From the IMG/VR virus record IMGVR_UViG_3300029305_002776: DNA of 64,000 nt; one strand, given 5' to 3'. The notes beneath the pieces are model-generated. The model searched no databases. It was not told the origin of the DNA and saw nothing but the letters and a program-made list of their open reading frames with translations. Positions 2,273-36,360 of the stretch are shown here, in pieces. How positions within the stretch are numbered: the stretch's first letter is position 1; every line of letters begins with the position of its first letter. The translations under genes were made by a program, and so were the position numbers. Source of the stretch: a virus (lineage: Duplodnaviria > Heunggongvirae > Uroviricota > Caudoviricetes).

Positions 2273-3133
2273 TTTTAATCTTCTCCTTCGTTTTCATTTT
2301 TAGTGTCTTTTATATTTAAACATTCAACTGCATCGTTGAATATAGTGCTTAAAAAGCTACCAAATGGTTTGAATAACCCACATGCAAAAAACCATATCAT
2401 AGTTAACGCTAGAACAACAAGCAACCAAAATACAACATTCAATTTACATCAATCCTTTTTACATGTTTTAGAGTTATGGTGCTGCTTTATTCATCCAACC
2501 TGTTTTAGCAGGTACAGACCGTGAGGATTTTAAGAGGTGCTTTATGAAAAAGACTGTCATCGTGACAGATGGCGCCGCACTGAGGTGTCGATCCCCACAG
2601 GGCTACGAACCCTGCCAACCGTTTTCAAGACGGAGCCAGCAGCCGTGCTGGTTAATGCGGCATATTATATAAAAACATCACATTCACTCTCCCGATTCTC
2701 TAAGTGAAACAACCTTCCTCTGAACCACATTATTCAGCCTTACGGGTGTAACATAAAAGGTCATGGCTATTTTATTGATCGTACTTTTACCACCATGTGA
2801 TGTTTAATTAGAGTGTTTTTATTTTCGGTTTACACCTAGTTGCAACCTGGATACCACACAACCCTAATAACGCTCCACATAACTTTGCAACAAAACTATG
2901 CTTCTCAGCTTGGCGGAGCAGGTGAGTGCCGACCTCACTCGTCGCATTTCTGCGGCCTAATGGTTTAGCAAACCATCCCCTTTGCCAACATTGGGTACTG
3001 CTCCATGCGCAACCAGTTAGGCAGTAACTGGCAACTGTCATACATATTACAAAGCATATTATGAAATAGTTGTGCAGAACTAATCCCGTCCTTGTCATCG
3101 GACTAATATTAAAACCCTGCTGCACCAAGGGAC

Positions 3134-3209
3134 TGGAGCTGACGGTGAGACTCGAACTCACAACCTACTGATTACAAGTCAGTTGCGCTGCCAATTGCGC
3201 CACGCCAGC
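3134..3209 (-). tRNA. tRNA-Thr (anticodon UGU)
   Basis: Cloverleaf GCTGGCG...ACTGA-CTTGTAA-TCAGT...GAGTTCGAGTCTCAC...CGTCAGC-T-CCA; 7 bp acceptor, canonical T-loop, CCA encoded. Confidence 0.85.
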
Positions 3210-3356
3210 ATATAAATATGGTTTGTAAAAATAAGTTTCGGAGACAGGCACCAAATCTTATAAACTTCCACCATAAAAGTTTTGTTCAATCCCACCTTTT
3301 GGACGCATCCTCTAGGCGATTACAGGCCTCACAAGTATCTGTAACCTTTATGGGTC

Positions 3357-3432
3357 TGGTGACCCATCTGGGACTCGAACCCAGGACAACTTGCTTAAAA
3401 GGCAAGTGCGCTACCACCTGCGCCAATGGGTC
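3357..3432 (-). tRNA. tRNA-Lys (anticodon UUU)
   Basis: GACCCAT...CTTGC-CTTTTAA-GCAAG...GGGTTCGAGTCCC...ATGGGTC-A-CCA. Confidence 0.85.
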
Positions 3433-3570
3433 ATGTTAAGCGACAGATGTGTTTCCATCGCTTGTTATGTTCTTATTATACTTATTCTGTAGTCGTTTTC
3501 AATTGACAAAATAAACAAAAACTATAAAGATAATTTATTCAATTTTGTTAATACCACAACTTTTATATAA

Positions 3571-4095
3571 TTACCTCTTAAGCGCATCCAAAATGTCTGC
3601 AACTAAAACATCATAGCTCTCTTCACATCCATCATAATGTCTACATGCTACACCAAATTTGTTAAGGAAGGGAAGTAACTCTTTAGAAAGCGCATCACTT
3701 TCCTGTTCGTTCTGAAAACGTCCTGTAGGATTATAAGGCTTAACACGATTAATGAATACATTCATGGAATTATAGGAATCAAATACCTTGGACACAAGAG
3801 CATTAAACTCGTCACCAAGAGTATCATCATCACAATAAAAACAAGAAAGCAGCAATGGAGAATCGGTAATAACAACGTCTACTTTGTCTTGGAGACGACT
3901 AATTCGGAAATACTGTTTACCAAAAATATATGCTTGATTCTGGAATACTGCTTTGCTTTCCTCCCAAACTTTGTCTTTGGCAAATTCAGTAACTAGCTCT
4001 ACATTTATTCCTGCCATTTTCAGTTTAGAAAATACATAAGCTGCGCCAGTTGACTTTCCTGCTCCTGGAGCGCCAAATAGATTGACTACTAACAT
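3571..4095 (-). CDS. P-loop nucleoside/nucleotide kinase-like protein (AAA_28/AAA_33-type fold)
   Basis: Walker A GAPGAGKST near N-terminus, Walker-B-like VVITDSP; size 174 aa; embedded inside tRNA island. Confidence 0.55.
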   Translation of the reverse strand: MLVVNLFGAPGAGKSTGAAYVFSKLKMAGINVELVTEFAKDKVWEESKAVFQNQAYIFGKQYFRISRLQDKVDVVITDSPLLLSCFYCDDDTLGDEFNALVSKVFDSYNSMNVFINRVKPYNPTGRFQNEQESDALSKELLPFLNKFGVACRHYDGCEESYDVLVADILDALKR

Positions 4096-4128
4096 AATAA
4101 AACCTCCAATAAATTACTTTGAATATAT

Positions 4129-4201
4129 GGTAGAAGATGTCGGACTCGAACCGCTACCCAAGCTCCCAAAGCTAGTGTGTTACCATTACACCACATCCTC
4201 T
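4129..4201 (-). tRNA. tRNA-Pro (anticodon UGG)
   Basis: AGAGGAT...CTAGC-TTTGGGA-GCTTG (one mismatch in anticodon stem)...GCGGTTCGAGTCCGA...ATCTTCT-A-CCA. Confidence 0.75.
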
Positions 4202-4205
4202 ATAT

Positions 4206-4292
4206 TGGTGCTACTGATAAGATTTGAACTTACACGGCATTGCTACCACAAGCACCTCAAGCTTGCATGTCTACCTATTCCATCACAGTAGC
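4206..4292 (-). tRNA. tRNA-Leu (anticodon GAG), class II with long variable arm
   Basis: GCTACTG...CAAGC-TTGAGGT-GCTTG, 16-nt variable arm, T-arm GTAAGTTCAAATCTTAT, CAGTAGC-A-CCA. Confidence 0.85.
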
Positions 4293-4295
4293 ATA

Positions 4296-4370
4296 TGGAG
4301 CGAGTGAGGATAATCGAAATCCCATCCCTAGCTTGGAAGGCTAGTATCTTAGCCATTAGACGACACTCGC
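4296..4370 (-). tRNA. tRNA-Gly (anticodon UCC)
   Basis: GCGAGTG...CTAGC-CTTCCAA-GCTAG...GGGATTTCGATTATCC...CACTCGC-T-CCA. Confidence 0.85.
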
Positions 4371-4559
4371 ATCTTTAATATTTTGATGTTTTATGGCTTG
4401 GTGGAGGTGGGGTTTCACCAGTGCCGCAGCCGCAGACATCATAACTGCCTATCCCCTACTTTTCTCTCAGCCTCGCTCCGCAGAGTCGGCAAATCCGATA
4501 GCTTTTATTGTCGTCGAGAGAGCATCGACTAGATGCCTTTCACATCTGCACTTCCTATT

Positions 4560-4635
4560 TGGCAGGGGCTTAAGGATTCGAACCCTAACCACATGGCTTT
4601 GGAGGCCAGCAGGCTACCAATTACAACAAACCCCT
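4560..4635 (-). tRNA. tRNA-Trp (anticodon CCA)
   Basis: AGGGGTT...CTCCAAA anticodon loop...AGGGTTCGAATCCTT...AGCCCCT-G-CCA; close in layout to bacterial tRNA-Trp. Confidence 0.8.
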
Positions 4636-4966
4636 ATAATTGATGGAATCAGCGCTTAATGTTCATGACCATGTTAAGCGCAGAAACTTCGGGCCGTTCG
4701 GTCTTTCACTACTAAGTCCGTTACAAAGACACTTATCCATCTGTATCTTTTAGTGGCTCCCTAACTAGTATTGAGACTTGCGTATATTTTTGTGAGGTTG
4801 ACCCTCTATTTATATAACCACTCTTTTTTAGCTCCTCATTTTTACAGCCGAGGCTTGCTGTTTATGCACTATCCAACTTTATGCATAAAGTTATGCTCTA
4901 TCCAGTATTGGGTATACTGTTTACTCCAGATCTTCTGCCTTGAGCTGATATCCCAATTGGCGCACA

Positions 4967-5042
4967 TGGCGGGACGCATAGGGATCGAACCTATGACACC
5001 GTGGTTAACAGCCACGTGCTCTACCGACTGAGCTAGCGTCCC
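4967..5042 (-). tRNA. tRNA-Asn (anticodon GUU)
   Basis: GGGACGC-TA-GCTCAGTCGGTAGAGC...GTGGC-TGTTAAC-CACGG...AGGTTCGATCCCT...GCGTCCC-G-CCA. Confidence 0.85.
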
Positions 5043-5264
5043 ATATTATAGTTTTGTTCGTAATCGGATAACTATAAACCGACCCACCTCAACCTTGGAG
5101 TTCAAAGGTTCACTCCTCAAATCTTTGGACGACTCCGCAGATTATCCTTTGATTGTCCTCGTTGTTATTTAAAGTCGTATGACCTCACGACACGCCAATT
5201 CGAGCAATTACGGTTAGTTCTCTACTATGCAACGTACAGTTTTTTAATGCTACTCTGTTTCGCA

Positions 5265-5339
5265 TGGCACGGCTGGATGGATTTGAACCATCGAATGCGG
5301 GAGTCAAAGTCCCGTGCCTTACCACTTGGCTACAGCCGT
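5265..5339 (-). tRNA. tRNA-Gln (anticodon UUG)
   Basis: ACGGCTG...CGGGA-CTTTGAC-TCCCG...GATGGTTCAAATCCATC-CAGCCGT-G-CCA. Confidence 0.85.
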
Positions 5340-5451
5340 ATATAAATTGCCTTACCTTTCTGTCTCTAGTGTGCCTTTCGGCCTTCAACTCTCTCCGTAG
5401 TAAGGCGGGACACGTAAATCTGCCCACGTGGTTGCCCTAGGTACAACTTGT

Positions 5452-5525
5452 TGGTTGCGGAGACTGGATTCGAACCAGTGTCTTTAGGTTATGAGCCTAA
5501 CAAGGAACCTCTCCTCTACTCCGCA
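5452..5525 (-). tRNA. tRNA-Met/Ile2 (anticodon CAU; initiator, elongator or lysidine-Ile not distinguishable)
   Basis: TGCGGAG...TTAGG-CTCATAA-CCTAA...ACTGGTTCGAATCCAGT-CTCCGCA-A-CCA; unusual U1-A72. Confidence 0.8.
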
Positions 5526-5794
5526 ATATAAATAGAGCCGTATGCATCCAACTCTAAGCTATTCGTTTTGACATAACAGGTTGCCATCCTAATGGGTCTA
5601 TCTATAACAATTAACTATGTTATACTCAATCACCATCATTACATTTAACTTAAGGAAGTAAATGAATCACCCATTTATTTTGAGCCATTAATGTAGGCGG
5701 ATAATCGTATTAAAGGATACAATTCCAACAAACTCACCGTTTCAGTCACGAGGTGGTGAACCTATCCATTCAGGATTCTCATAGGAATTTCACC

Positions 5795-5850
5795 TTACAG
5801 TCCTGCGAGGATTCGAACCTCATTTCAACCAACCATGGTCTAGGACATAT
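5795..5850 (-). ncRNA. tRNA-like fragment (canonical T-arm GAGGTTCGAATCCTC plus partial acceptor GTCCTAG/GCAGGAC, no D/anticodon arms)
   Basis: Perfect T-arm but only 18 nt between 5' acceptor strand and T-arm; cannot fold as full tRNA. Confidence 0.35.
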
Positions 5851-6036
5851 ATAAATCAAGCCCCTCCTGCTTGATGTTCTCCAAAAACCAATAGTTTCCT
5901 ATCTGGAGAGCCACTGCATCTTGATGTGTCAGACTACGATATATCGGAGTGTACCTTTCGGTACGGGACTCATAGTCAATCCCCTATATGAACCACAAAC
6001 AACCACAAAACCCAGGAACCTCTTCCCAAGTCCCCA

Positions 6037-6112
6037 TGGCGACTCTGGCGGGTTTCGATCCCGCTACCTCCAGCGTGACAGGCTGGCGCTCTCCCGATTG
6101 AGCTACAGAGCC
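6037..6112 (-). tRNA. tRNA-Asp (anticodon GUC)
   Basis: GGCTCTG-TA-GCTCAATCGGGAGAGC...CCAGC-CTGTCAC-GCTGG...GCGGGATCGAAACCCGC-CAGAGTC-G-CCA. Confidence 0.85.
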
Positions 6113-6128
6113 ATAGAAAGAAGATGTA

Positions 6129-6356
6129 TTAATTAAAGCCCATCTTCTTAACGGCATCAATGAATTGCTGAGGGTCTGCATGGTCAGGTGCTACAAGATT
6201 TACTTTTTCGCCAATTAGAGTAAATAGTGCAAGCAAGCTTTTTGCATTAACGGTCACAAGACCCTTGCTTACATTGATTTCAAAAGGCTGCTGAGAAGCA
6301 ATTTCGCTTAGCTTCATAATGTCTTCTGTGCTATCAAGCTGAACTGTGTAGGTCAT
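6129..6356 (-). CDS. HPr/Crh-like small protein (HPr fold lacking His15 region)
   Basis: Pattern ...VNAKSLLALFTLIGEKVNLVAPD...QQFIDAVKKM parallels the HPr Ser46 region GKSASAKSLFKLQTLGL...; ORF track start 6365 is GTG, ATG with RBS at 6356. Confidence 0.4.
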   Translation of the reverse strand: MTYTVQLDSTEDIMKLSEIASQQPFEINVSKGLVTVNAKSLLALFTLIGEKVNLVAPDHADPQQFIDAVKKMGFN

Positions 6357-6384
6357 TATTTTCACTTCCTTTGTTTTAATTATG

Positions 6385-6461
6385 TGGCACCCCAGGAGGG
6401 ACTCAAACCCCCGACACCGTGCTTAGAAGGCACGTGCTCTATTCACCTGAGCTACTGGGGC
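6385..6461 (-). tRNA. tRNA-Arg (anticodon UCU)
   Basis: GCCCCAG-TA-GCTCAGGTGAATAGAGC...CGTGC-CTTCTAA-GCACG...GGGGGTTTGAGTCCCTC-CTGGGGT-G-CCA. Confidence 0.85.
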
Positions 6462-6601
6462 ATATGAGATAATATAAAGGCTGTTCATCTCACTCCATTT
6501 ACTACAGCTCCTGAATCGTGCAAGCCTTCTAGTGCGAATGTTTTAATTCTAACTCTTAGCCAGTATCATCTTGCGTCCGCTTCGTAGCACCTTTATAACT
6601 G

Positions 6602-6678
6602 TGGTAGACGGAGGAGGATTCGAACCTTCCTATCTCAGGATTATAAGTCCTGGGCCGATCCATATTGGCGTTCCGTCC
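6602..6678 (-). tRNA. tRNA-Ile (anticodon UAU), slightly atypical T-stem/variable region
   Basis: GGACGGA...CAGGA-CTTATAA-TCCTG...GGAAGGTTCGAATCCTCC-TCCGTCT-A-CCA; A.C mismatch in T-stem or 6-nt variable loop. Confidence 0.65.
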
Positions 6679-6686
6679 ATATAAAA

Positions 6687-6761
6687 TGGTGGCCCCTAGG
6701 GTAGTCGAAACCCTGCCTCTGGATTGAGAATCCAGCGTCTTTGCCACTTGACTAAGGGGCC
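6687..6761 (-). tRNA. tRNA-Glu (anticodon CUC)
   Basis: GGCCCCT-TA-GTCAAGTGGCAAAGAC...CTGGA-TTCTCAA-TCCAG...AGGGTTTCGACTACCCT-AGGGGCC-A-CCA. Confidence 0.8.
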
Positions 6762-6764
6762 ATA

Positions 6765-6915
6765 TGGTACTCCCAACGGGATTCGAACCCGTGACTCCGC
6801 CTTTGGTGCTGAATGCAAGAATTGAACTCGCATCATTGCGTCCACACACACCGTTTTTCTTAAACTAATCCAGCGAAAGGGCGACGACTTAGGCCGCTTG
6901 TCGATGGGAGCATAT
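6765..6915 (-). ncRNA. cluster of tRNA-like 3' halves / pseudo-tRNA elements (two T-arm+acceptor+CCA modules: ...GAGTTCAATTCTTGC-ATTCAGC-A-CCA and ...ACGGGTTCGAATCCCGT-TGGGAGT-A-CCA) without canonical 5' halves
   Basis: Two consecutive canonical T-arms each followed by 7-nt acceptor strand, discriminator and CCA, but no complementary 5' acceptor/D/anticodon arms could be found upstream. Confidence 0.35.
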
Positions 6916-7083
6916 CTTCCTGTCAAGGATTGAGACCCACACAAGGCACCACAATACTAATCTCAACAGGAAAAAGCCATGCGTCCGAAGAACCTCATCT
7001 GCAGCTGATAGGTTTTTAACAGAGATAGCAGTAAAAGTAATGAGCTGAACCGCACAAACGTTAACATAACCAACATGGCACAT

Positions 7084-7159
7084 TGGTGGAGCCTAGGAGA
7101 ATCGAACTCCTGACCTCTTCCTTGCAAGGGAAGCGTTCTACCATCTGAACTAAGACCCC
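7084..7159 (-). tRNA. tRNA-Ala (anticodon UGC)
   Basis: GGGGTCT...CTTCC-CTTGCAA-GGAAG...CAGGAGTTCGATTCTCCT-AGGCTCC-A-CCA; G3.U70 alanine identity pair present. Confidence 0.85.
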
Positions 7160-7200
7160 ATATTGAGCCTTTTTAAATCATGCTCAGGATTGGAGGGGGA

Positions 7201-7288
7201 TGGTGGGCCGAGTAGGAGTCGAACCTACGGTGTATCTTACGTGCCTGATTTACAGTCAGGTGTCATCGCCAACTAGACGTACCGACCC
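7201..7288 (-). tRNA. tRNA-Tyr (anticodon GUA), class II
   Basis: GGGTCGG...CCTGA-CTGTAAA-TCAGG, long variable arm, GTAGGTTCGACTCCTAC-TCGGCCC-A-CCA. Confidence 0.85.
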
Positions 7289-7289
7289 A

Positions 7290-7780
7290 TATTGAGCAGT
7301 TTTATATCTTACTCAGGATTTCATTTCTGAGAATGTTTTCCGTTGGATGTAGATATGTATAAAATATTAAATAAATCATTTGAAAGAAATAATAATTTTT
7401 AGTAAAATTATAGAAGTAACCAACAGAACTGCATCAGATATGACACTTATGAAAGTTCTGAGAATATCGGCAATAGTTTAAAACCAGCAAGTGGTTGTAA
7501 AGGATTTGAACCTTTTAAAAATTTTTGCAAAATAAAATTTTATTATCCGAAGTAACTATATGCCACTGCATCAGAACTATTTTATTTATTATGTTCGGAG
7601 AATGTTGCCTGTTGGAGATGGATTACACCAAAAGATTTTAAGTCTTTTTCTTTTCAAGTCAAGAAGTATCCAACTGACCTGCTTCCGAACTGTAGTATTT
7701 GCGAGAATAAGGTGGAAGAGGTGAACATTATCATATTAGCAGTATGAAGTATCTCTTCCAGTCTGCATCGCAAATACCTT
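7290..7780. repeat. AT-rich intergenic region with three degenerate ~130 bp tandem units (shared blocks ...ctgcatcaga..., gttctgagaata-tcggcaa-tag) and an isolated tRNA T-arm/acceptor remnant (ggatttgaacc, 7502-7512)
   Basis: Direct comparison of 7425-7560, 7562-7690, 7672-7780; short repeat catattgagc...(t)tactcaggatt also follows tRNA-Ala and tRNA-Tyr. Confidence 0.4.
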
Positions 7781-7782
7781 AA

Positions 7783-9435
7783 TTAGTTTCTGTTCTCAAT
7801 CTCGTCCCACTGGTCAATCATGGCCTTAGCGAAGACGGCTTCATTTCCAGTCCAACCGTACATGATGTTTGTACGATATGCATACTCAGGAATTACAACA
7901 TTATCATAACCTGCAGTCTGAATGCTGAACACATTAACCTTGGGATTAACCTTCTTGCGATATTCCTGAATCAGCTTAAATACATTAATCATACCACCAG
8001 AATAAGCATAGCCATGACCACAGCCGAAGCCAGAATTCATATACTGCATTTTGTGTTCAGAGGTGCCGTACAAACCACCATGACCTGCTTGCTGATCAGA
8101 GTAGATAAAGATATTATCCCAATGCTCCTTGTTCTTGATGGCATTATAGAAGAACTCCCAAACTCCACCCTCGGTTCCACCACCAACATCAGAGCTTTGC
8201 TTTTTAGAAATACCCATGGCCTGATTCAACACACCAGTACGCTTGCTAATAGGCTTAGTAATCAGCTTGTCACCAAACTTACCAACATAGCCCTCGTCAG
8301 AACAAGCGGCAGTGATTACAGAAGACAGGTTATCAATGTCTGCTACGGTAACAGAGCCATACTCGCTGTTGAAAGTACCCCATGCAGAACCAGAGTTGTC
8401 AGACAGACACATTGTCTTGCCTTTGAGCTTAGGATAGTTTGCCAGAGCAATATCCATGCACTCTTCAAGAGCATCAATGATAATAGGCTTGTGATTACAA
8501 GCACTATTCTGTACTGCCTTCAAAGCGGAGTAATAGCGGAAGGGGAACTGCTTGCTACCAATTACAGTGTCTTTAATTTTCTGCATATACTTCTTGCAGA
8601 ACTCCATGTCGTTGACTTCGGAAAACACACCACGAATATTTCTGAGCATTGCCATATGACCCATGTTTACAGTCTCAAAAATCTCTTTCCAAGACTTACC
8701 TGCAGAACGAAGGTTTTCCCAAGTCTTATTATCCTCAGAAACCTCAACAGTGCCAGTACGCATCAGCTCATCAATGACATCAGAATACGCATGGCAAAGT
8801 CTCACCGCATTAATCATTCCAATCTCATGATTCTTATACTTTGCAACCTGATAACGACCAAGCTTGTTCAGCTTTGCACTCCAAGAACGCTTAAGAATAC
8901 TAGGAATGTTATTCTTCTTGCCATTGTTGTTATACAGATAATAGGCCATTTGAGACATAGGCTCATCTGCACGGCTCATAATCTCCTGATTGATGCGGTT
9001 GAATTCTCCAGGATTGTTCTCAGAAAACTCAATACGCTTAGGATGAATAGCGGCACGAACCATAATCACTTGAGGATTCAGACGCATGAAATAATCATTA
9101 CGAAGAGCCTTTGCCCACTCAAGAGTTGCCTTGAAGTCATAGTCAAGAGCCTTGTCGATAGCCTCTTCCATAACTTGCTCAGTCGTCTTACCCTCGTAGC
9201 AAGTAGGAATAGAGCTGAAACCCTTAATAAGCTCATTAACTACATATGCCTTGCTTCTCTTAGAGCCTCTGTAGTAAGAAGGCTCTCCGAAAATGGAAGA
9301 TGCAGTAATCATCTTCAAGGTGTCCAGAGGATTAATTACATAGGAATCGCCGCCCATGAAATTCTTAACTGTTTCGTCAAGTCTAAGGGAATTAGTCTGA
9401 TTCATTTCAGATACTGCTTTAGACATCTTGCTCAT
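7783..9435 (-). CDS. rsr: Ro60/TROVE-domain ribonucleoprotein orthologue (Rsr-like) with C-terminal vWA/MIDAS
   Basis: 550 aa; TROVE-type N-terminal region and C-terminal vWA with MIDAS DNSGSAWG; ATG at 9435 has RBS GGAGG 8 nt upstream (track ORF starts further 5' at 9489). Confidence 0.8.
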   Translation of the reverse strand: MSKMSKAVSEMNQTNSLRLDETVKNFMGGDSYVINPLDTLKMITASSIFGEPSYYRGSKRSKAYVVNELIKGFSSIPTCYEGKTTEQVMEEAIDKALDYDFKATLEWAKALRNDYFMRLNPQVIMVRAAIHPKRIEFSENNPGEFNRINQEIMSRADEPMSQMAYYLYNNNGKKNNIPSILKRSWSAKLNKLGRYQVAKYKNHEIGMINAVRLCHAYSDVIDELMRTGTVEVSEDNKTWENLRSAGKSWKEIFETVNMGHMAMLRNIRGVFSEVNDMEFCKKYMQKIKDTVIGSKQFPFRYYSALKAVQNSACNHKPIIIDALEECMDIALANYPKLKGKTMCLSDNSGSAWGTFNSEYGSVTVADIDNLSSVITAACSDEGYVGKFGDKLITKPISKRTGVLNQAMGISKKQSSDVGGGTEGGVWEFFYNAIKNKEHWDNIFIYSDQQAGHGGLYGTSEHKMQYMNSGFGCGHGYAYSGGMINVFKLIQEYRKKVNPKVNVFSIQTAGYDNVVIPEYAYRTNIMYGWTGNEAVFAKAMIDQWDEIENRN

Positions 9436-9459
9436 AAAAATTTCCTCCATAGTTTTATT

Positions 9460-9536
9460 TGGTAGCCCTGGTGGAATTCGAATCCACACTGGACGGATTT
9501 TAAGTCCGCTTCCTCTGCCTATTGGGATACAGGGCC
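9460..9536 (-). tRNA. tRNA-like gene with class-I cloverleaf and anticodon UAA (Leu-type anticodon but no long variable arm), sits in rsr leader 24 nt upstream of rsr ATG
   Basis: GGCCCTG...GCGGA-CTTAAAA-TCCGT-CCAGT-GTGGATTCGAATTCCAC-CAGGGCT-A-CCA; weak D-stem. Confidence 0.6.
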
Positions 9537-9574
9537 ATATTCAATAATTTTGTATTGTCTTTTGAACTGTCGTA

Positions 9575-9603
9575 ATATTACCACACTTTCAAAGATTTGT
9601 CAA
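9575..9603 (-). promoter_or_regulatory. sigma70-type promoter TTGACA-N17-TAATAT reading leftward into tRNA-like element and rsr
   Basis: minus strand GGTATTGACAAATCTTTGAAAGTGTGGTAATATTACG followed by conserved leader ACAATACAAAATTATT. Confidence 0.6.
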
Positions 9604-9723
9604 TACCTTTTTTAGAATTTTCTGAAATCTCTTTTGAGTTAAGGAGAAGAACATGAACCAACATTTCCGCTCCTTAACTCTTAGAGCTTTCAATAATTTT
9701 GTGCTGTCCTTTGAACTGAACTA

Positions 9724-35244: not shown

Positions 35245-36360
35245 CTCAACAGTTGTGGTATATTTCTTTATATGTGTCATATTGGCAGCGGCTAGAAGCT
35301 ATGAGCGGAGGCAGCTTCAGGAGATATCCTGAAGTAGCCTAAGCACAGAGCTTATTCTGCGCTGCGAATTGAAAGTAAACTGTCTTGCAATCTTATGGTA
35401 TACTCCATTTTAGGTTACTCATAACTTTGGTGCATTTCTTTATATGTTTCATATAAGAGGCAAATCCCCAGGACGAGAAGATCATGAGACATCTCCGATA
35501 GGAGATGTATCATGATCATCTGTCTGGTGGAGGTGCCTTCTATTGAATTCAGTTATCTCGCAACCCATTGTTGCACTACAATTGTTAGATTACTCATAAT
35601 ATTGGTGCGTTGCTTTATTAGCTTCATATAACCCGATGGTGCCAGATTGGCAGCAATAATGCGTCGAGATAGCGACGCATGACTGCTGCGTATCTGGATT
35701 AACATGCGGGTCATTGAATTTTATTACCTTGTAATCTATTAGCCGCACTGCAATTAAATTACTCACAACTCTGATGCATTTCTTTATTGGTTTCATATAA
35801 AGGAAGATATAGATGAGAAGCGGAAAGCCGGTCAGAAGTTGGCTATTTAGGCAGTATCTCTCTCTACTGCCTAAATAGACAATCTTATGACCTGCTGATC
35901 CTTCTCATATTGTAGCTTCCTTGATTGAAATTAGTTGCCTTGTAATTTGCTGCTGCATTACATTTAAAAACTACTCACAACTACGGTACATTTCTTTAGT
36001 TGTTTCATATGTGAAGGTGGAATCCCAGTTAAGACGACGGGAGAATTGTGTGATAACAGTGATTATCCCGTCGTCTGACTGGTGAATCACCTTCTATTGA
36101 AGTCAGTTGCCTTGTAATTTTTTGCCGTACTGCAATGTTGGCTATTCACAACATTGGTGTGTTTCTTTATAAGTTTCATATATCCAGCGAATGTAGATGA
36201 GGTTTGTGTCCCAATCCGAGAGAGTCACCACAGTGAGTGTCTCGGATTGGTTCCAAAGCTCATCAATTATTCGCTGGAAATTGAATTATGTTGCCTTATA
36301 ACCAAGATGCCACACTACACATACTGTTTACATACTTCTTACCAGCGTTTCATATACAGC
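35245..36360. repeat. tandem array of one partial + six full ~172 bp units (conserved ~95 nt module ending ...GGTGCATTTCTTTATAnGTTTCATATA plus unit-specific 40-75 nt imperfect hairpin), immediately 3' of the reverse transcriptase gene
   Basis: conserved 3' boundaries at 35283, 35456, 35631, 35800, 36011, 36183, 36356 (spacing 173/175/169/211/172/173); the last unit overlaps the RT stop codon; hairpins e.g. CTTCAGGA-GATA-TCCTGAAG, GATCATGAGACATCTCC-GATA-GGAGATGTATCATGATC, CTATTTAGGCAGTA..TACTGCCTAAATAG, AGACGACGGGA..TCCCGTCGTCT, CCAATCCGAGAGAGTCAC..GTGAGTGTCTCGGATTGG. Confidence 0.85.

What the first reader, a model, noticed from the sequence alone, without database searches (positions are those of the whole stretch)
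5745..7780. Non-canonical tRNA-like modules (T-arm + acceptor + CCA without 5' halves) scattered through and after the tRNA island
Three regions carry perfect tRNA T-arms (GAGGTTCGAATCCTC at 5807-5821, two modules at 6765-6840, and AAAGGTTCAAATCCTTT near 7500). Each is followed by a 7-nt acceptor strand, a discriminator and often CCA. No complementary 5' acceptor, D or anticodon arm exists in any of them. They are not simply decayed tRNAs, because the T-arms are perfect. YrlA-type Y RNAs have exactly this kind of partial tRNA mimicry, so these modules are candidate Y RNAs for the adjacent Ro60. Alternatives are tRNA gene remnants from recombination or decoys for host anticodon nucleases or tRNA-processing enzymes.
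Basis: seen in the sequence. Interest (0 to 1): 0.7.

Follow-up and report, generated by a model that had tools for sequence, protein, structure and literature searches.

The report
tRNA-in-tRNA, Y RNAs, tRNA remnant
The four stray tRNA "T-arms" in this phage belong to three different things: a glutamate tRNA gene split in its anticodon loop by a tRNA-shaped insert, one of four Y-type small RNAs next to a Ro60-like gene, and a truncated tRNA-like remnant.

Summary
Exactly four T-arm hairpins lie outside called tRNAs, all on the minus (tRNA) strand, at the stated places. The single interpretation (5'-less modules, all Y RNAs) is only partly right.

(B) 6765-6911(-) is a complete tRNA-Glu(UUC) cloverleaf. 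A 71-nt tRNA-shaped insert (6874-6804) interrupts it after anticodon base 36. The insert's ends are its own G+1 and the A of CCA. Relatives carry the same gene uninterrupted. Two related phage contigs have similar inserts in tRNA-Lys and tRNA-Pro. This is the "enigmatic" intron kind noted in Lak megaphages (Devoto 2019), here in a minimal CCA-ended form.

(C) The T-arm at 7499-7515 sits in the third of four tandem Y-RNA-like modules (7774-7324) just downstream of a TROVE/Ro60-like gene. Relatives' modules match Rfam YrlA below threshold.

(A) 5800-5848(-) is a tRNA-Gln-derived mini element (5-bp stem, hairpin, T-arm). It has no homologs and lies in an indel-variable segment.

Proposed and untested for B: RNase P cuts at the 5' junction, a 3'-end nuclease cuts after CCA, and an RNA ligase seals the exons. 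No ligase was found in the window.

The parts
6765..6911 (-). Interrupted tRNA-Glu(UUC) gene, outer cloverleaf 147 nt including the insert
   Evidence: ARAGORN intron mode finds a clean cloverleaf. Exact removal of 6874-6804 gives a 76-nt tRNA-Glu(ttc) called in default mode. It is 96% identical to uninterrupted genes in L016 and L018. The sequence is identical in independent assemblies L007 and L008.
6875..6911 (-). 5' exon of tRNA-Glu(UUC): acceptor strand, 3-bp D arm, anticodon stem 5' strand, loop CUUUC
   Evidence: 37/37 identical to L018 5054-5090 and L016 1285-1321.
6804..6874 (-). 71-nt tRNA-shaped insert: 7-bp acceptor GCUGGAU/AUUCAGC, 4-bp D-like stem without GG, 6-nt 'anticodon' loop UGUGGA, T-arm GCGAG-UUCAAUU-CUUGC, discriminator A, CCA
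   Evidence: Rfam tRNA 40 bits, E 5.7e-5. ARAGORN relaxed-mode structure. Absent from the homologous site in L018, L016 and L014. No other copy in any fetched locus or in IMG/VR.
6765..6803 (-). 3' exon of tRNA-Glu(UUC): AA, anticodon stem 3' strand, 4-nt variable loop, T-arm ACGGG-UUCGAAU-CCCGU, acceptor strand, A, CCA
   Evidence: About 94% identical to L016 and L018. The T-stem differences are compensatory (ACGGG/CCCGU vs AGGGG/CCCCU vs ACCGG/CCGGU in L014).
7455..7577 (-). Y-RNA-like module M3. It contains the orphan T-arm at 7499-7515, followed by a 4-bp hairpin, and has no D arm
   Evidence: Consensus fold with L004 and L002 homologs has 6 of 32 pairs with compensatory change. Fold z = -2.58. 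About 79% conserved block in L001 and L004.
7698..7774 (-). Y-RNA-like module M1 (no tRNA-like part)
   Evidence: Same core as the other modules: stem 1 UUUGCGA/UCGCAAA, loop UGCAG../..AUUC, stem 2 UGGAAGAG/CUCUUCCA, then AUACUUC. Fold z = -3.33.
7593..7690 (-). Y-RNA-like module M2
   Evidence: Stem 1 GUUCGGA/UCCGAAC, stem 2 GUUGGA/UCCAAC. Fold z = -1.79.
7324..7440 (-). Y-RNA-like module M4
   Evidence: Stem 1 AUCUGA/UCAGAA, stem 2 UUCUGUUGG/CCAACGGAA. Fold z = -2.15.
7783..9438 (-). TROVE-domain (Ro60-like) protein gene, the presumed partner of the Y-like modules
   Evidence: Pfam TROVE 31.6 bits, E 1.4e-7. PDB TROVE-domain proteins E 2.6e-8. The Y-module motif array occurs only in loci carrying a close homolog of this gene.
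5800..5848 (-). Region A: minimal tRNA-like element with 5-bp stem GUCCU/AGGAC, hairpin ACCAUGGUUGGU and T-arm at 5806-5822. It is followed by U-G with no CCA and preceded by a hairpin (5875-5855) and an AU-rich linker
   Evidence: Local folds (z = -1.3, not significant). The T-arm plus 3' strand is identical to the 3' end of a tRNA-Gln(UUG) gene in L030. No Rfam or ARAGORN tRNA call. No 5' half elsewhere in the window. The segment 6110..5532 is missing in L024.

Best explanation
The four orphan T-arms are three unrelated objects.

(1) 6765-6911(-) is a tRNA-Glu(UUC) gene carrying a 71-nt insertion between anticodon-loop positions 36 and 37.
- Shown: the insert is tRNA-shaped. Its boundaries are exactly its own first base (G+1) and the last A of its CCA.
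- Inferred mechanism: in the array transcript, host RNase P cuts at the insert's 5' end. That cut is also the 5' splice site and leaves a 3'-OH on the 5' exon.
- Inferred: a tRNA 3'-end endonuclease cuts after CCA, leaving a 5'-phosphate on the 3' exon. The exons stay paired through the outer acceptor, D and T arms.
- Inferred: an ATP-dependent RNA ligase of the Rnl type, which joins 3'-OH to 5'-P, seals the anticodon loop.
- The insert's 6-nt 'anticodon' loop and GG-less D loop argue that it is a processing handle rather than a decoder.

(2) 7774-7324(-) is an array of four Y-RNA-like genes downstream of a TROVE/Ro60-like gene.
- Each module has a terminal stem, a conserved asymmetric loop (5' UGCAG, 3' AUUC), a second stem, UUACUUC and a variable effector part.
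- The third module carries a T-arm only, which is partial tRNA mimicry as in YrlB of M. smegmatis.
- By analogy with known Y RNAs, they are presumed to bind the Ro60-like ring through the terminal stem and 5' motif.

(3) 5800-5848(-) is a truncated tRNA-Gln-derived element. It is most likely a recombination remnant that could still act as an RNase P-type processing signal.

Confidence by part: about 0.95 that region B is a tRNA-shaped insertion in tRNA-Glu(UUC), about 0.4-0.45 that it is actually spliced as proposed, about 0.8 that region C is a Y-type RNA, and about 0.5 for the remnant reading of region A.
For: Region B:
- Clean outer cloverleaf with a 71-nt 'intron'.
- The insert scores 40 bits on Rfam tRNA.
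- Uninterrupted homologs exist in L018, L016 and L014. L018 also shares the upstream 172-nt spacer at 97%.
- In-silico excision from G+1 to CCA gives a default-callable tRNA-Glu(ttc) whose loop matches the relatives' CTTTCA(C/A).
- Two further cases follow the same rule and have empty-site homologs: L018 tRNA-Lys(UUU) with a 123-nt insert ending C-CCA, and L024 tRNA-Pro(UGG) with a 69-nt insert ending A-CAA. The L018 and L024 inserts share an unusual T-loop UGCAARU and an acceptor GUCAGnn, yet sit in different tRNAs at different loop positions.
- The sequence is identical in independent assemblies.
- GAA is 63% of Glu codons, so this is the major isoacceptor.
- Lak megaphage tRNA introns have tRNA-like modules abutting the 3' exon (PMC6784885, Table S6). 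The Lak Thr intron sits at 36/37 and ends exactly at the discriminator, in a genome whose tRNA genes lack CCA. The window's tRNA genes encode CCA, and the insert ends at CCA.
- Established knowledge: RNase P needs only the acceptor stem, T-arm and RCCA. RNase P, Z and E all leave 3'-OH and 5'-P ends. M. smegmatis YrlA with a 7-bp acceptor is cut by RNase P (PMC4201824).

Region C:
- Modular alignment.
- The motif is found only downstream of the TROVE gene.
- Stems 1 and 2 pair in all 14 modules despite different sequences.
- Rfam YrlA matches relatives' modules end to end (37 bits, E 1.8e-6 locally).
- Compensatory pairs and fold z-scores from -1.8 to -3.3.
- Precedent for two or more Y RNAs per genome, Y RNAs in phages, and T-arm-only YrlB.

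Region A.
Against: - No RNA data exist, so splicing, cleavage and Ro60 binding are all untested.
- No RNA ligase, RtcB or Pnkp was found among the ORFs scanned in the 64-kb window. Only a relative (L022) has a PF09414 ligase.
- In most bacteria CCA blocks RNase Z, so the enzyme for the 3' cut is unclear.
- Lak introns carry an extra 5' hairpin and linker, so RNase P cannot define their 5' splice site. A unified mechanism may therefore differ from the one proposed.
- Exon divergence from L018 (96%) is no lower than spacer divergence (97%), so there is no evidence of purifying selection since the insertion.
- The window's Y modules give no Rfam YrlA hit, and the TROVE match is weak.
- Per-module permutation tests for stem 2 are individually weak (P from 0.007 to 0.4).
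- Region A has no homologs, and its fold is no better than shuffles.
Confidence: 0.6

Rival explanations
1. Region B is a dead gene. A selfish or accidentally recombined tRNA-like DNA segment landed in tRNA-Glu(UUC) and nothing is spliced. RNase P would release the inner RNA and leave two useless tRNA halves. The phage relies on host tRNA-Glu and its own tRNA-Glu(CUC).
For: No ligase was found in the window. Exon divergence is about the same as spacer divergence. tRNA arrays in this phage group are highly rearranged and rich in HNH and GIY-YIG endonucleases. An intact tRNA-Glu(CUC) lies 4 nt downstream.
Against: All three independent inserts sit in anticodon loops. All three leave both cloverleafs perfect and restore exactly 7-nt loops identical to the empty alleles. 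Lak introns are perfectly conserved across cohorts. GAA is the major Glu codon.
Confidence: 0.3
2. This concerns origin rather than function. The insert arose at the RNA level. A mature tRNA-like RNA (5'-P at G+1, 3'-OH at CCA) was ligated into an anticodon loop nicked by an anticodon nuclease, by an RNA-repair ligase. The product was then copied back into DNA by a reverse transcriptase. This would make tRNA-shaped inserts a retro-mobile element family.
For: For the Glu and Lys cases the insert boundaries are uniquely the ends of a mature tRNA. Similar inserts sit in different tRNAs at different loop positions: 34/35, 35/36 and 36/37. The hosts Glu(UUC) and Lys(UUU) are classical anticodon-nuclease targets (established knowledge). 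An RT gene lies at 36328-37599.
Against: tRNA genes in this phage encode CCA, so a DNA-level copy would look the same. The RT is unclassified and 30 kb away. The L024 insert ends in CAA rather than CCA. Lak introns have an extra 5' hairpin and end at the discriminator. No free-standing source copy was found.
Confidence: 0.12
3. One reading: all three regions are YrlA-type Y RNAs for the adjacent Ro60.
For: Region C is such an RNA. All three regions lie within 4 kb of the TROVE gene and on the same strand.
Against: The Ro60-module motif (GAWGCAG..UACUUC / AUUC plus closing stem) is absent around regions A and B. Region B is fully explained as a tRNA within a tRNA, with empty-site alleles in phages that lack any TROVE gene nearby. 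There are no Rfam YrlA hits.
Confidence: 0.04
4. The orphan modules are decoys or sponges for host tRNA-targeting defence nucleases or tRNA-processing enzymes.
For: The inner element and region A keep the acceptor and T-arm but lack decoding features. Phage tRNA arrays are thought to counter tRNA-cleaving defences (general knowledge).
Against: Anticodon nucleases recognise anticodon loops, which these elements lack. A decoy has no need to be nested precisely inside another tRNA. No supporting data are available.
Confidence: 0.06

Closest known systems
tRNA introns of Lak megaphages (Devoto et al. [quoted passage not shown]
   Same: They are phage tRNA genes interrupted in the anticodon loop (Thr at 36/37) by a short ORF-less insert. 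The insert's 3' part is a tRNA-like module (acceptor, T-arm, discriminator) that abuts the 3' exon. Filled and empty alleles coexist among relatives. There is no group I or BHB signature, and the mechanism is unknown.
   Different: The window's insert is only the tRNA-like module (71 nt). It starts at its own G+1, with no 5' hairpin or A-rich linker, and ends in CCA rather than at the discriminator. The phage is different: contigs of about 160-190 kb and 37.5% GC, against Lak's 540 kb and 26% GC. The authors flagged only the Thr intron as tRNA-like. By eye, all four introns in their Table S6 are tRNA-like.
YrlA/YrlB bacterial and phage Y RNAs (Chen et al. 2014, PMC4201824; Rfam RF02553)
   Same: They are encoded within 4 kb of a TROVE/Ro60 gene on the same strand, with several per genome. 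They have a terminal stem with a conserved 5'-strand motif. The tRNA-like part comes in the order T-arm then acceptor hairpin (then D-arm in relatives). M. smegmatis YrlB has a T-arm only.
   Different: The window modules score nothing on RF02553. The 5' motif is YNGAWGCAG rather than GNCGAAN0-1G. There is an extra conserved UUACUUC box. Four to six modules lie head to tail. Three of the four window modules have no tRNA-like part.
Archaeal/eukaryal bulge-helix-bulge tRNA introns and split or permuted tRNA genes
   Same: A protein-dependent (non-ribozyme) intron in the anticodon loop whose exons are held together by the tRNA body.
   Different: There is no BHB motif. The 5' junction is at the base of the insert's acceptor stem, and the 3' junction is 4 nt beyond that stem. 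No splicing endonuclease is known in bacteria or found here.
Group I introns in bacterial tRNA anticodon loops (tRNA-Leu, fMet, Arg, Ile; Patescibacteria Asn/Asp)
   Same: The location in the anticodon loop, and mobility among tRNA genes.
   Different: 71 nt is far too small for a group I core, and there is no Rfam Intron_gpI hit.
tRNA-like punctuation processed by RNase P/Z (mascRNA from MALAT1, mitochondrial tRNA punctuation) and T4 Rnl1/Pnkp anticodon-loop repair
   Same: The proposed chemistry. A tRNA-shaped element dictates endonucleolytic cuts at its own ends, and an RNA ligase seals a broken anticodon loop.
   Different: Those systems are not known to be combined into a splicing pathway. 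This is an analogy, not a homology.

Membership tests
Canonical tRNA (outer gene 6765-6911 after removing 6804-6874) | 7-bp acceptor, D arm, 5-bp anticodon stem with a 7-nt loop (U33, purine 37), T-arm, and 76 nt in total | tested here: met
   ARAGORN in default mode calls tRNA-Glu(ttc) on the in-silico-spliced sequence. It is 96% identical to uninterrupted genes.
Canonical tRNA (inner element 6804-6874) | 7-nt anticodon loop and D-loop G18G19 | tested here: not met
   The loop is 6 nt (UGUGGA) and the D loop AAGAA has no GG. The acceptor, T-arm and ACCA are present, and Rfam tRNA gives 40 bits.
Lak-type phage tRNA intron | Insert in the anticodon loop of a phage tRNA, with filled and empty alleles among relatives | tested here: met
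   for the window; for Lak.
Lak-type phage tRNA intron | tRNA-like module (acceptor, T-arm, discriminator) abutting the 3' exon | tested here: met
   for the window; Table S6 sequences read.
Lak-type phage tRNA intron | 5' hairpin plus A-rich linker upstream of the tRNA-like module | tested here: not met
   The window insert begins directly with its acceptor G+1.
Group I intron | Conserved P3-P8 catalytic core, at least about 200 nt, matching Rfam RF00028 | tested here: not met
   The insert is 71 nt, and there is no Rfam hit even at E<=10.
BHB (archaeal-type) intron | Two 3-nt bulges separated by a 4-bp helix at the splice sites | tested here: not met
   By inspection of the junctions, 5 nt (CUUUC) and 6 nt (ACCA+AA) of single strand lie between the outer anticodon stem and the inner acceptor stem, with no 4-bp central helix.
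YrlA (Rfam RF02553) | Score at or above the gathering threshold (69 bits) | tested here: not met
   No hit in window 2500-9700 at E<=10. Relatives reach 37 and 30 bits.
YrlA (Rfam RF02553) | tRNA-like domain in the order T-arm, acceptor hairpin, D-arm | tested here: not met
   Window M3 has the T-arm and a 4-bp hairpin but no D arm. L004 M1 and M4 and L002 M3 have all three.
Bacterial Y RNA in the broad sense (YrlA/YrlB/Yrn) | Encoded within 4 kb of a TROVE/Ro60 gene on the same strand | tested here: met
   The modules start 9 nt after the TROVE stop codon, on the same strand. The arrays occur only in loci with the TROVE homolog.
Bacterial Y RNA in the broad sense (YrlA/YrlB/Yrn) | 5' and 3' ends pair into a stem carrying a conserved 5'-strand motif (GNCGAAN0-1G / GGUCCGA-like) | tested here: inconclusive
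   The stem is present and covaries in 14 of 14 modules. The motif is YNGAWGCAG (for example GUCCGAUGCAG, UGCGAUGCAG), which is similar but not identical to the published motif.
Bacterial Y RNA in the broad sense (YrlA/YrlB/Yrn) | Binds the Ro60 ortholog | not testable with these tools
   This needs co-immunoprecipitation or a gel-shift assay.

The most novel reading that the evidence does not exclude
Phages have a ribozyme-free, splicing-endonuclease-free way to splice tRNAs. The intron is itself a tRNA mimic, so the host's ordinary tRNA end-processing enzymes (RNase P at 5', the 3'-end nuclease at N73 or CCA) cut it out, and an RNA ligase reseals the anticodon loop. Because the insert has the ends of a mature tRNA, it may also spread between tRNA genes through RNA-level ligation into nicked anticodon loops, followed by reverse transcription. 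If so, the 71-nt window element is the minimal form of the 'enigmatic' Lak-phage introns and gives their mechanism.
Probability: 0.3. Interest if true: 0.85.

Novelty: new variant of a known kind. Interest (0 to 1): 0.6.

Why it matters
Introns in phage tRNA genes were noticed once, in Lak megaphages in 2019, and left unexplained. This window, with two relatives, supplies the simplest example found so far. The insert is nothing but a tRNA mimic, and its two ends coincide to the base with where tRNA-processing enzymes cut. Matching uninterrupted alleles are available. That turns the question of how these introns are removed into a direct experiment with a 147-nt transcript, RNase P and an RNA ligase. 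It also warns annotators that standard tRNA finders miss such genes: ARAGORN in default mode missed both the outer and the inner fold here. Separately, the four-module Y-RNA-like array extends the Ro60/Y RNA partnership to another phage group. It does so with a motif variant that current Rfam models do not detect.

Tried and rejected
- GenBank phages (blastn, distant mode) match only canonical tRNAs, so there are no close relatives there.
- IMG/VR pattern scans gave two chance hits with no tRNA for the nested junction. They gave none for the inner element's 3' part and none for the L018/L024 insert T-arm.
- The one metagenome scan, anchored on the 75-aa island protein, returned only four distant loci.
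- Exact-protein look-ups of the window's own genes returned contigs about 100% identical, which confirm the sequence but give no variation.
- I searched for a far-upstream or trans-encoded 5' half for region A. Only chance 7-mers turned up, none followed by a D arm.
- ARAGORN with introns up to 3000 nt finds no tRNA around region A.
- I looked for RNA ligase, RtcB or Pnkp in the window using Pfam, PHROGs, NCBIfam and tblastn with L022's ligase. None was found.
- A longest-run shuffle test for stem 2 of each Y module was underpowered in this AT-rich sequence.
- Promoter and terminator scans were at background.
- I considered a group I intron, a BHB intron, tRNA-Sec (ARAGORN's 'SeC(tca)' label is a splice-register artefact, since the homologs show UUC) and an assembly artefact. 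All were rejected.


Full report
**Context.** The window carries a tRNA island on the minus strand. ARAGORN finds 18 genes and Rfam finds 17 tRNA matches plus a drum RNA. The ORF at 7783-9438(-) is a TROVE-domain (Ro60-like) protein: Pfam TROVE E 1.4e-7, and the only PDB matches are TROVE-domain proteins. All coordinates below are on the + strand, but the features are read on the minus strand.

**Check of the observation.**
- A scan for 5-bp stems closing a T[TG]C[AG]ANN loop finds 16 such hairpins on the minus strand. Twelve lie inside called tRNAs.
- Exactly four are orphans, at 7499-7515, 6815-6831, 6776-6792 and 5806-5822. Shuffled sequence gives about two in the whole window on both strands.
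- The statement that none of them has a 5' acceptor, D or anticodon arm is wrong for the two at 6765-6840.

**Region B (6765-6911).**
- *Outer and inner folds.* ARAGORN in intron mode reports one clean cloverleaf spanning 6911..6765 with a 71-nt intron. Rfam independently calls 6874..6807 a tRNA (40 bits). With the following CCA, that is exactly the 71-nt intron.
- *The inner element.* It has a 7-bp acceptor stem (GCUGGAU/AUUCAGC), a 4-bp D-like stem whose loop lacks GG, a 6-nt 'anticodon' loop, a normal T-arm, discriminator A and CCA.
- *Anticodon identity.* ARAGORN labels the outer gene 'SeC(tca)', but that is only one of several possible splice registers. The outer body has a 3-bp D stem, a 4-nt variable loop and the anticodon stem UCGCC/GGCGG, which made me suspect tRNA-Glu.
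- *Uninterrupted homologs.* Contigs fetched through homologs of the 75-aa protein inside the island settle it. L018, L016 and L014 carry an uninterrupted tRNA-Glu(UUC). Its 5' 37 nt are identical to 6911..6875, and its 3' half is about 94% identical to 6803..6765. L018 also shares the 172-nt upstream spacer at 97%.
- *The junction.* Relatives read ...UCGCC CUUUCAC GGCGG.... The window reads ...UCGCC CUUUC[71 nt]AA GGCGG.... Removing G(6874) through A(6804) gives a 76-nt tRNA-Glu(ttc) that default ARAGORN calls. It is 96% identical to the L016 gene.
- *Boundaries.* Given the empty alleles, no other register keeps the UUC anticodon except a one-base shift that would put G at position 37. The insert boundaries are therefore, to the base, the ends of a mature tRNA.
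- *Not an artefact.* The sequence is identical in independent assemblies from other samples (L007, L008).

**The same kind of insert in relatives.**
- L018 7426-7624 is a perfect cloverleaf with a 123-nt insert, GUCAGAU...GUUGG-UGCAAGU-CCAGC-AUCUGAC-C-CCA.
- L024 275-420 is a tRNA-Pro with a 69-nt insert, GUCAGGG...UUUGG-UGCAAAU-CCAGA-UCUUGAC-A-CAA.
- Removing each insert from its own G+1 to CCA/CAA restores tRNA-Lys(UUU) and tRNA-Pro(UGG). Their anticodon loops are identical to those of uninterrupted homologs in L014/L015 and L022/L023.
- The loop position differs between cases: 36/37 for Glu, 35/36 for Lys, and 34/35 or 35/36 for Pro.
- The two inserts share an unusual T-loop and an acceptor sequence although they sit in different tRNAs. 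This suggests a mobile family, but two members prove nothing.
- Longer inserts (475-478 nt) carrying a PD-(D/E)XK ORF interrupt tRNA-Val (L014/L015) and tRNA-Asp (L032) in the same phage group. They have no group I signature. They are a different kind of insert and are absent from the window.

**Prior art.**
- My phrase searches for nested tRNAs found nothing.
- Devoto et al. (bioRxiv 10.1101/356790; Nat Microbiol 2019, PMC6784885) did report 'enigmatic' introns in Lak megaphage tRNAs. One of them, in tRNA-Thr(TGT), 'itself may encode a tRNA', and filled and empty alleles were aligned.
- Their Table S6 sequences show, by my reading, that all four introns (Tyr, Phe, Thr, Gly) end in a minimal tRNA-like module: an acceptor stem, one hairpin or a D-like arm, a T-arm, the 3' strand and a discriminator. 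Each module is preceded by a 5' hairpin and an A-rich linker.
- I fetched the empty Lak-C1 allele (loop CUUGUAA) and compared it with the filled Lak-A1 allele. The intron sits at 36/37, and its 3' junction falls exactly after the discriminator of the tRNA-like module.
- That Lak gene has no encoded CCA. The window's tRNA genes encode CCA, and the insert ends at CCA. In both systems the 3' junction coincides with the 3' end that the genome's own tRNA genes encode.
- I found no later paper on mechanism.

**Mechanism for region B (inferred, not shown).**
- A 7-bp acceptor stacked on a T-arm, with ACCA, is a full bacterial RNase P substrate (established knowledge). M. smegmatis YrlA with a 7-bp acceptor is cut by RNase P (PMC4201824). 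The precursor should therefore be cut between C36 and G+1.
- A second hydrolytic cut after CCA would leave exon ends with 3'-OH and 5'-P. These are substrates for an Rnl-type ligase with no healing step. The exons would stay paired in the outer cloverleaf.
- In favour: the base-exact boundaries, three independent cases each restoring a 7-nt loop, and the non-decoding character of the inserts. GAA is also the major Glu codon (311 versus 183 GAG).
- Against: no ligase was found in the window. The nuclease that would cut after CCA is unidentified. The 5' hairpin of the Lak introns cannot be removed by RNase P at the splice site. Exon divergence (96%) is no lower than spacer divergence (97%).
- I put about 0.4-0.45 on actual splicing and 0.3 on a dead, disrupted gene.
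- The mature-tRNA ends also allow an RNA-level origin: ligation of a tRNA-like RNA into a nicked anticodon loop, followed by reverse transcription. An unclassified RT is encoded at 36328-37599. A DNA-level copy of a CCA-encoding gene would look the same.

**Region C (7455-7577) and the Y-RNA-like array.**
- *Architecture.* Aligning the DNA downstream of the TROVE gene with that of IMG/VR relatives (L001/L004 at 82% and L002 at 78% protein identity) reveals head-to-tail modules. Each has:
  - a 7-bp terminal stem;
  - an asymmetric internal loop with invariant 5' UGCAG and 3' AUUC;
  - a second stem;
  - the box UUACUUC;
  - a variable insert of 22-99 nt.
- *Covariation.* Both stems pair in all 14 modules although their sequences differ (GCGA/UCGC, CUGA/UCAG, CGGA/UCCG, CCGA/UCGG, GUGA/UCAC).
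- *Window modules.* There are four: 7774-7698, 7690-7593, 7577-7455 and 7440-7324. Their fold z-scores are -3.3, -1.8, -2.6 and -2.2.
- *Link to YrlA.* In relatives, some inserts are full YrlA-type tRNA-like domains (T-arm, acceptor hairpin, D-arm). Rfam YrlA aligns to them end to end below threshold (37 bits).
- *Co-occurrence.* The motif array occurs only in loci with the close TROVE homolog. It is absent from L018, where a DUF2828 protein occupies that position, and from the other related arrays.
- *The T-arm module.* The orphan T-arm at 7499-7515 lies in module 3, followed by a 4-bp hairpin and no D arm. Its homologs keep the T-stem through an A-U to U-A exchange.
- *Precedent.* Chen et al. 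2014 describe Y RNAs next to Ro60 in 254 bacteria and 22 phages and at least two Y RNAs per species. They also report a 5' motif GNCGAAN0-1G and a T-arm-only YrlB.
- *Verdict.* The phage motif (for example GUCCGAUGCAG) resembles that motif and the vertebrate GGUCCGA but is not identical. ARAGORN's tRNA-Arg(tcg) call here is spurious.

**Region A (5800-5848).**
- The T-arm and the following CAGGACU-G are identical to the 3' end of a tRNA-Gln(UUG) gene in an unrelated phage contig, including the Gln-type G73 (L030).
- Locally the sequence folds into a 5-bp stem (GUCCU/AGGAC), a small hairpin and the T-arm. It is preceded by a hairpin and an AU-rich linker. The fold is no better than shuffles.
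- No tRNA model matches, there is no CCA, and no 5' half exists elsewhere in the window.
- The whole segment 6110..5532 is missing in L024, and no homolog turned up anywhere.
- The layout resembles the minimal tRNA-like modules of Lak introns, but I could find no tRNA exons around it.
- The most economical reading is a truncated tRNA-Gln derivative left by recombination. It might still act as an RNase P-type processing signal. My confidence in this is low.

**Verdict.** The finding is a real observation with a partly wrong single interpretation. Its most interesting part is the tRNA-shaped insert in tRNA-Glu(UUC), a minimal CCA-terminated variant of a barely described class of phage tRNA intron. 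It comes with clean filled and empty alleles and a directly testable processing model.

Noticed in passing
window 2808-2911 (-): A drum RNA (Rfam RF02958, 57 bits, above gathering) lies directly downstream of tRNA-Ser(gct) in the array.
   Followed up: no
window 7491-7579 (-) and 2570-2661 (-): ARAGORN's default 'tRNA-Arg(tcg)' is a false call overlapping Y module M3. A plausible tRNA-Ser(tga) at 2570-2661 appears only at a relaxed threshold.
   Followed up: partly
window 36328-37599 (-): A reverse transcriptase gene (Pfam RVT_1 E 5e-23). Its closest family is the group II intron RT, but it scores far below every NCBIfam cutoff. No DGR repeats or intron RNA were looked for.
   Followed up: partly
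window 4372-4559, 4636-4966, 5043-5264, 5526-6036, 6912-7083 (-): Long tRNA-free gaps inside the array have no convincing ORF or Rfam hit. The gap at 6912-7083 is 97% conserved in L018. A strong 12-bp hairpin lies at 6034-6007.
   Followed up: no
L014 11374-11927 / L015 3169-3722; L032 1759-2311: tRNA-Val and tRNA-Asp genes are interrupted in the anticodon loop by 475-478-nt inserts. The inserts are almost filled by a PD-(D/E)XK (PF11645) ORF, and the two ORFs are 42% identical. L016 has the intact tRNA-Val. No group I intron signature was found.
   Followed up: partly
L015 4594-5236; L004 1-145; L002 6650-6773: Relatives carry ROOL RNA (319 bits), a GOLLD fragment and a DUF3800-I RNA inside their tRNA arrays. 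The window has none of these.
   Followed up: no
L014, L015, L016, L018, L024, L025: Relatives encode a suppressor tRNA with anticodon CUA, which ARAGORN labels 'Pyl'. The window's island does not. The window's checked ORFs end in TAA 18 times, TGA 4 times and TAG once.
   Followed up: no
L004 5928-5997; L015 2264-2372: L004 has a free-standing tRNA-like gene with a 6-nt anticodon loop right after its Y-RNA array. L015 has a partial YrlA-like hit (T-arm, hairpin, D-arm order) within a tRNA array that has no TROVE gene nearby.
   Followed up: no
L018 3230-4768: Where the window has the TROVE gene, L018 has a DUF2828/DUF7788 protein that is only weakly similar in the vWA-like part. No Y-like modules follow it.
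   Followed up: partly
L022 2574-3269: A relative encodes a PF09414 RNA ligase (KxDG motif) at the edge of its tRNA array. No homolog exists in the window.
   Followed up: partly
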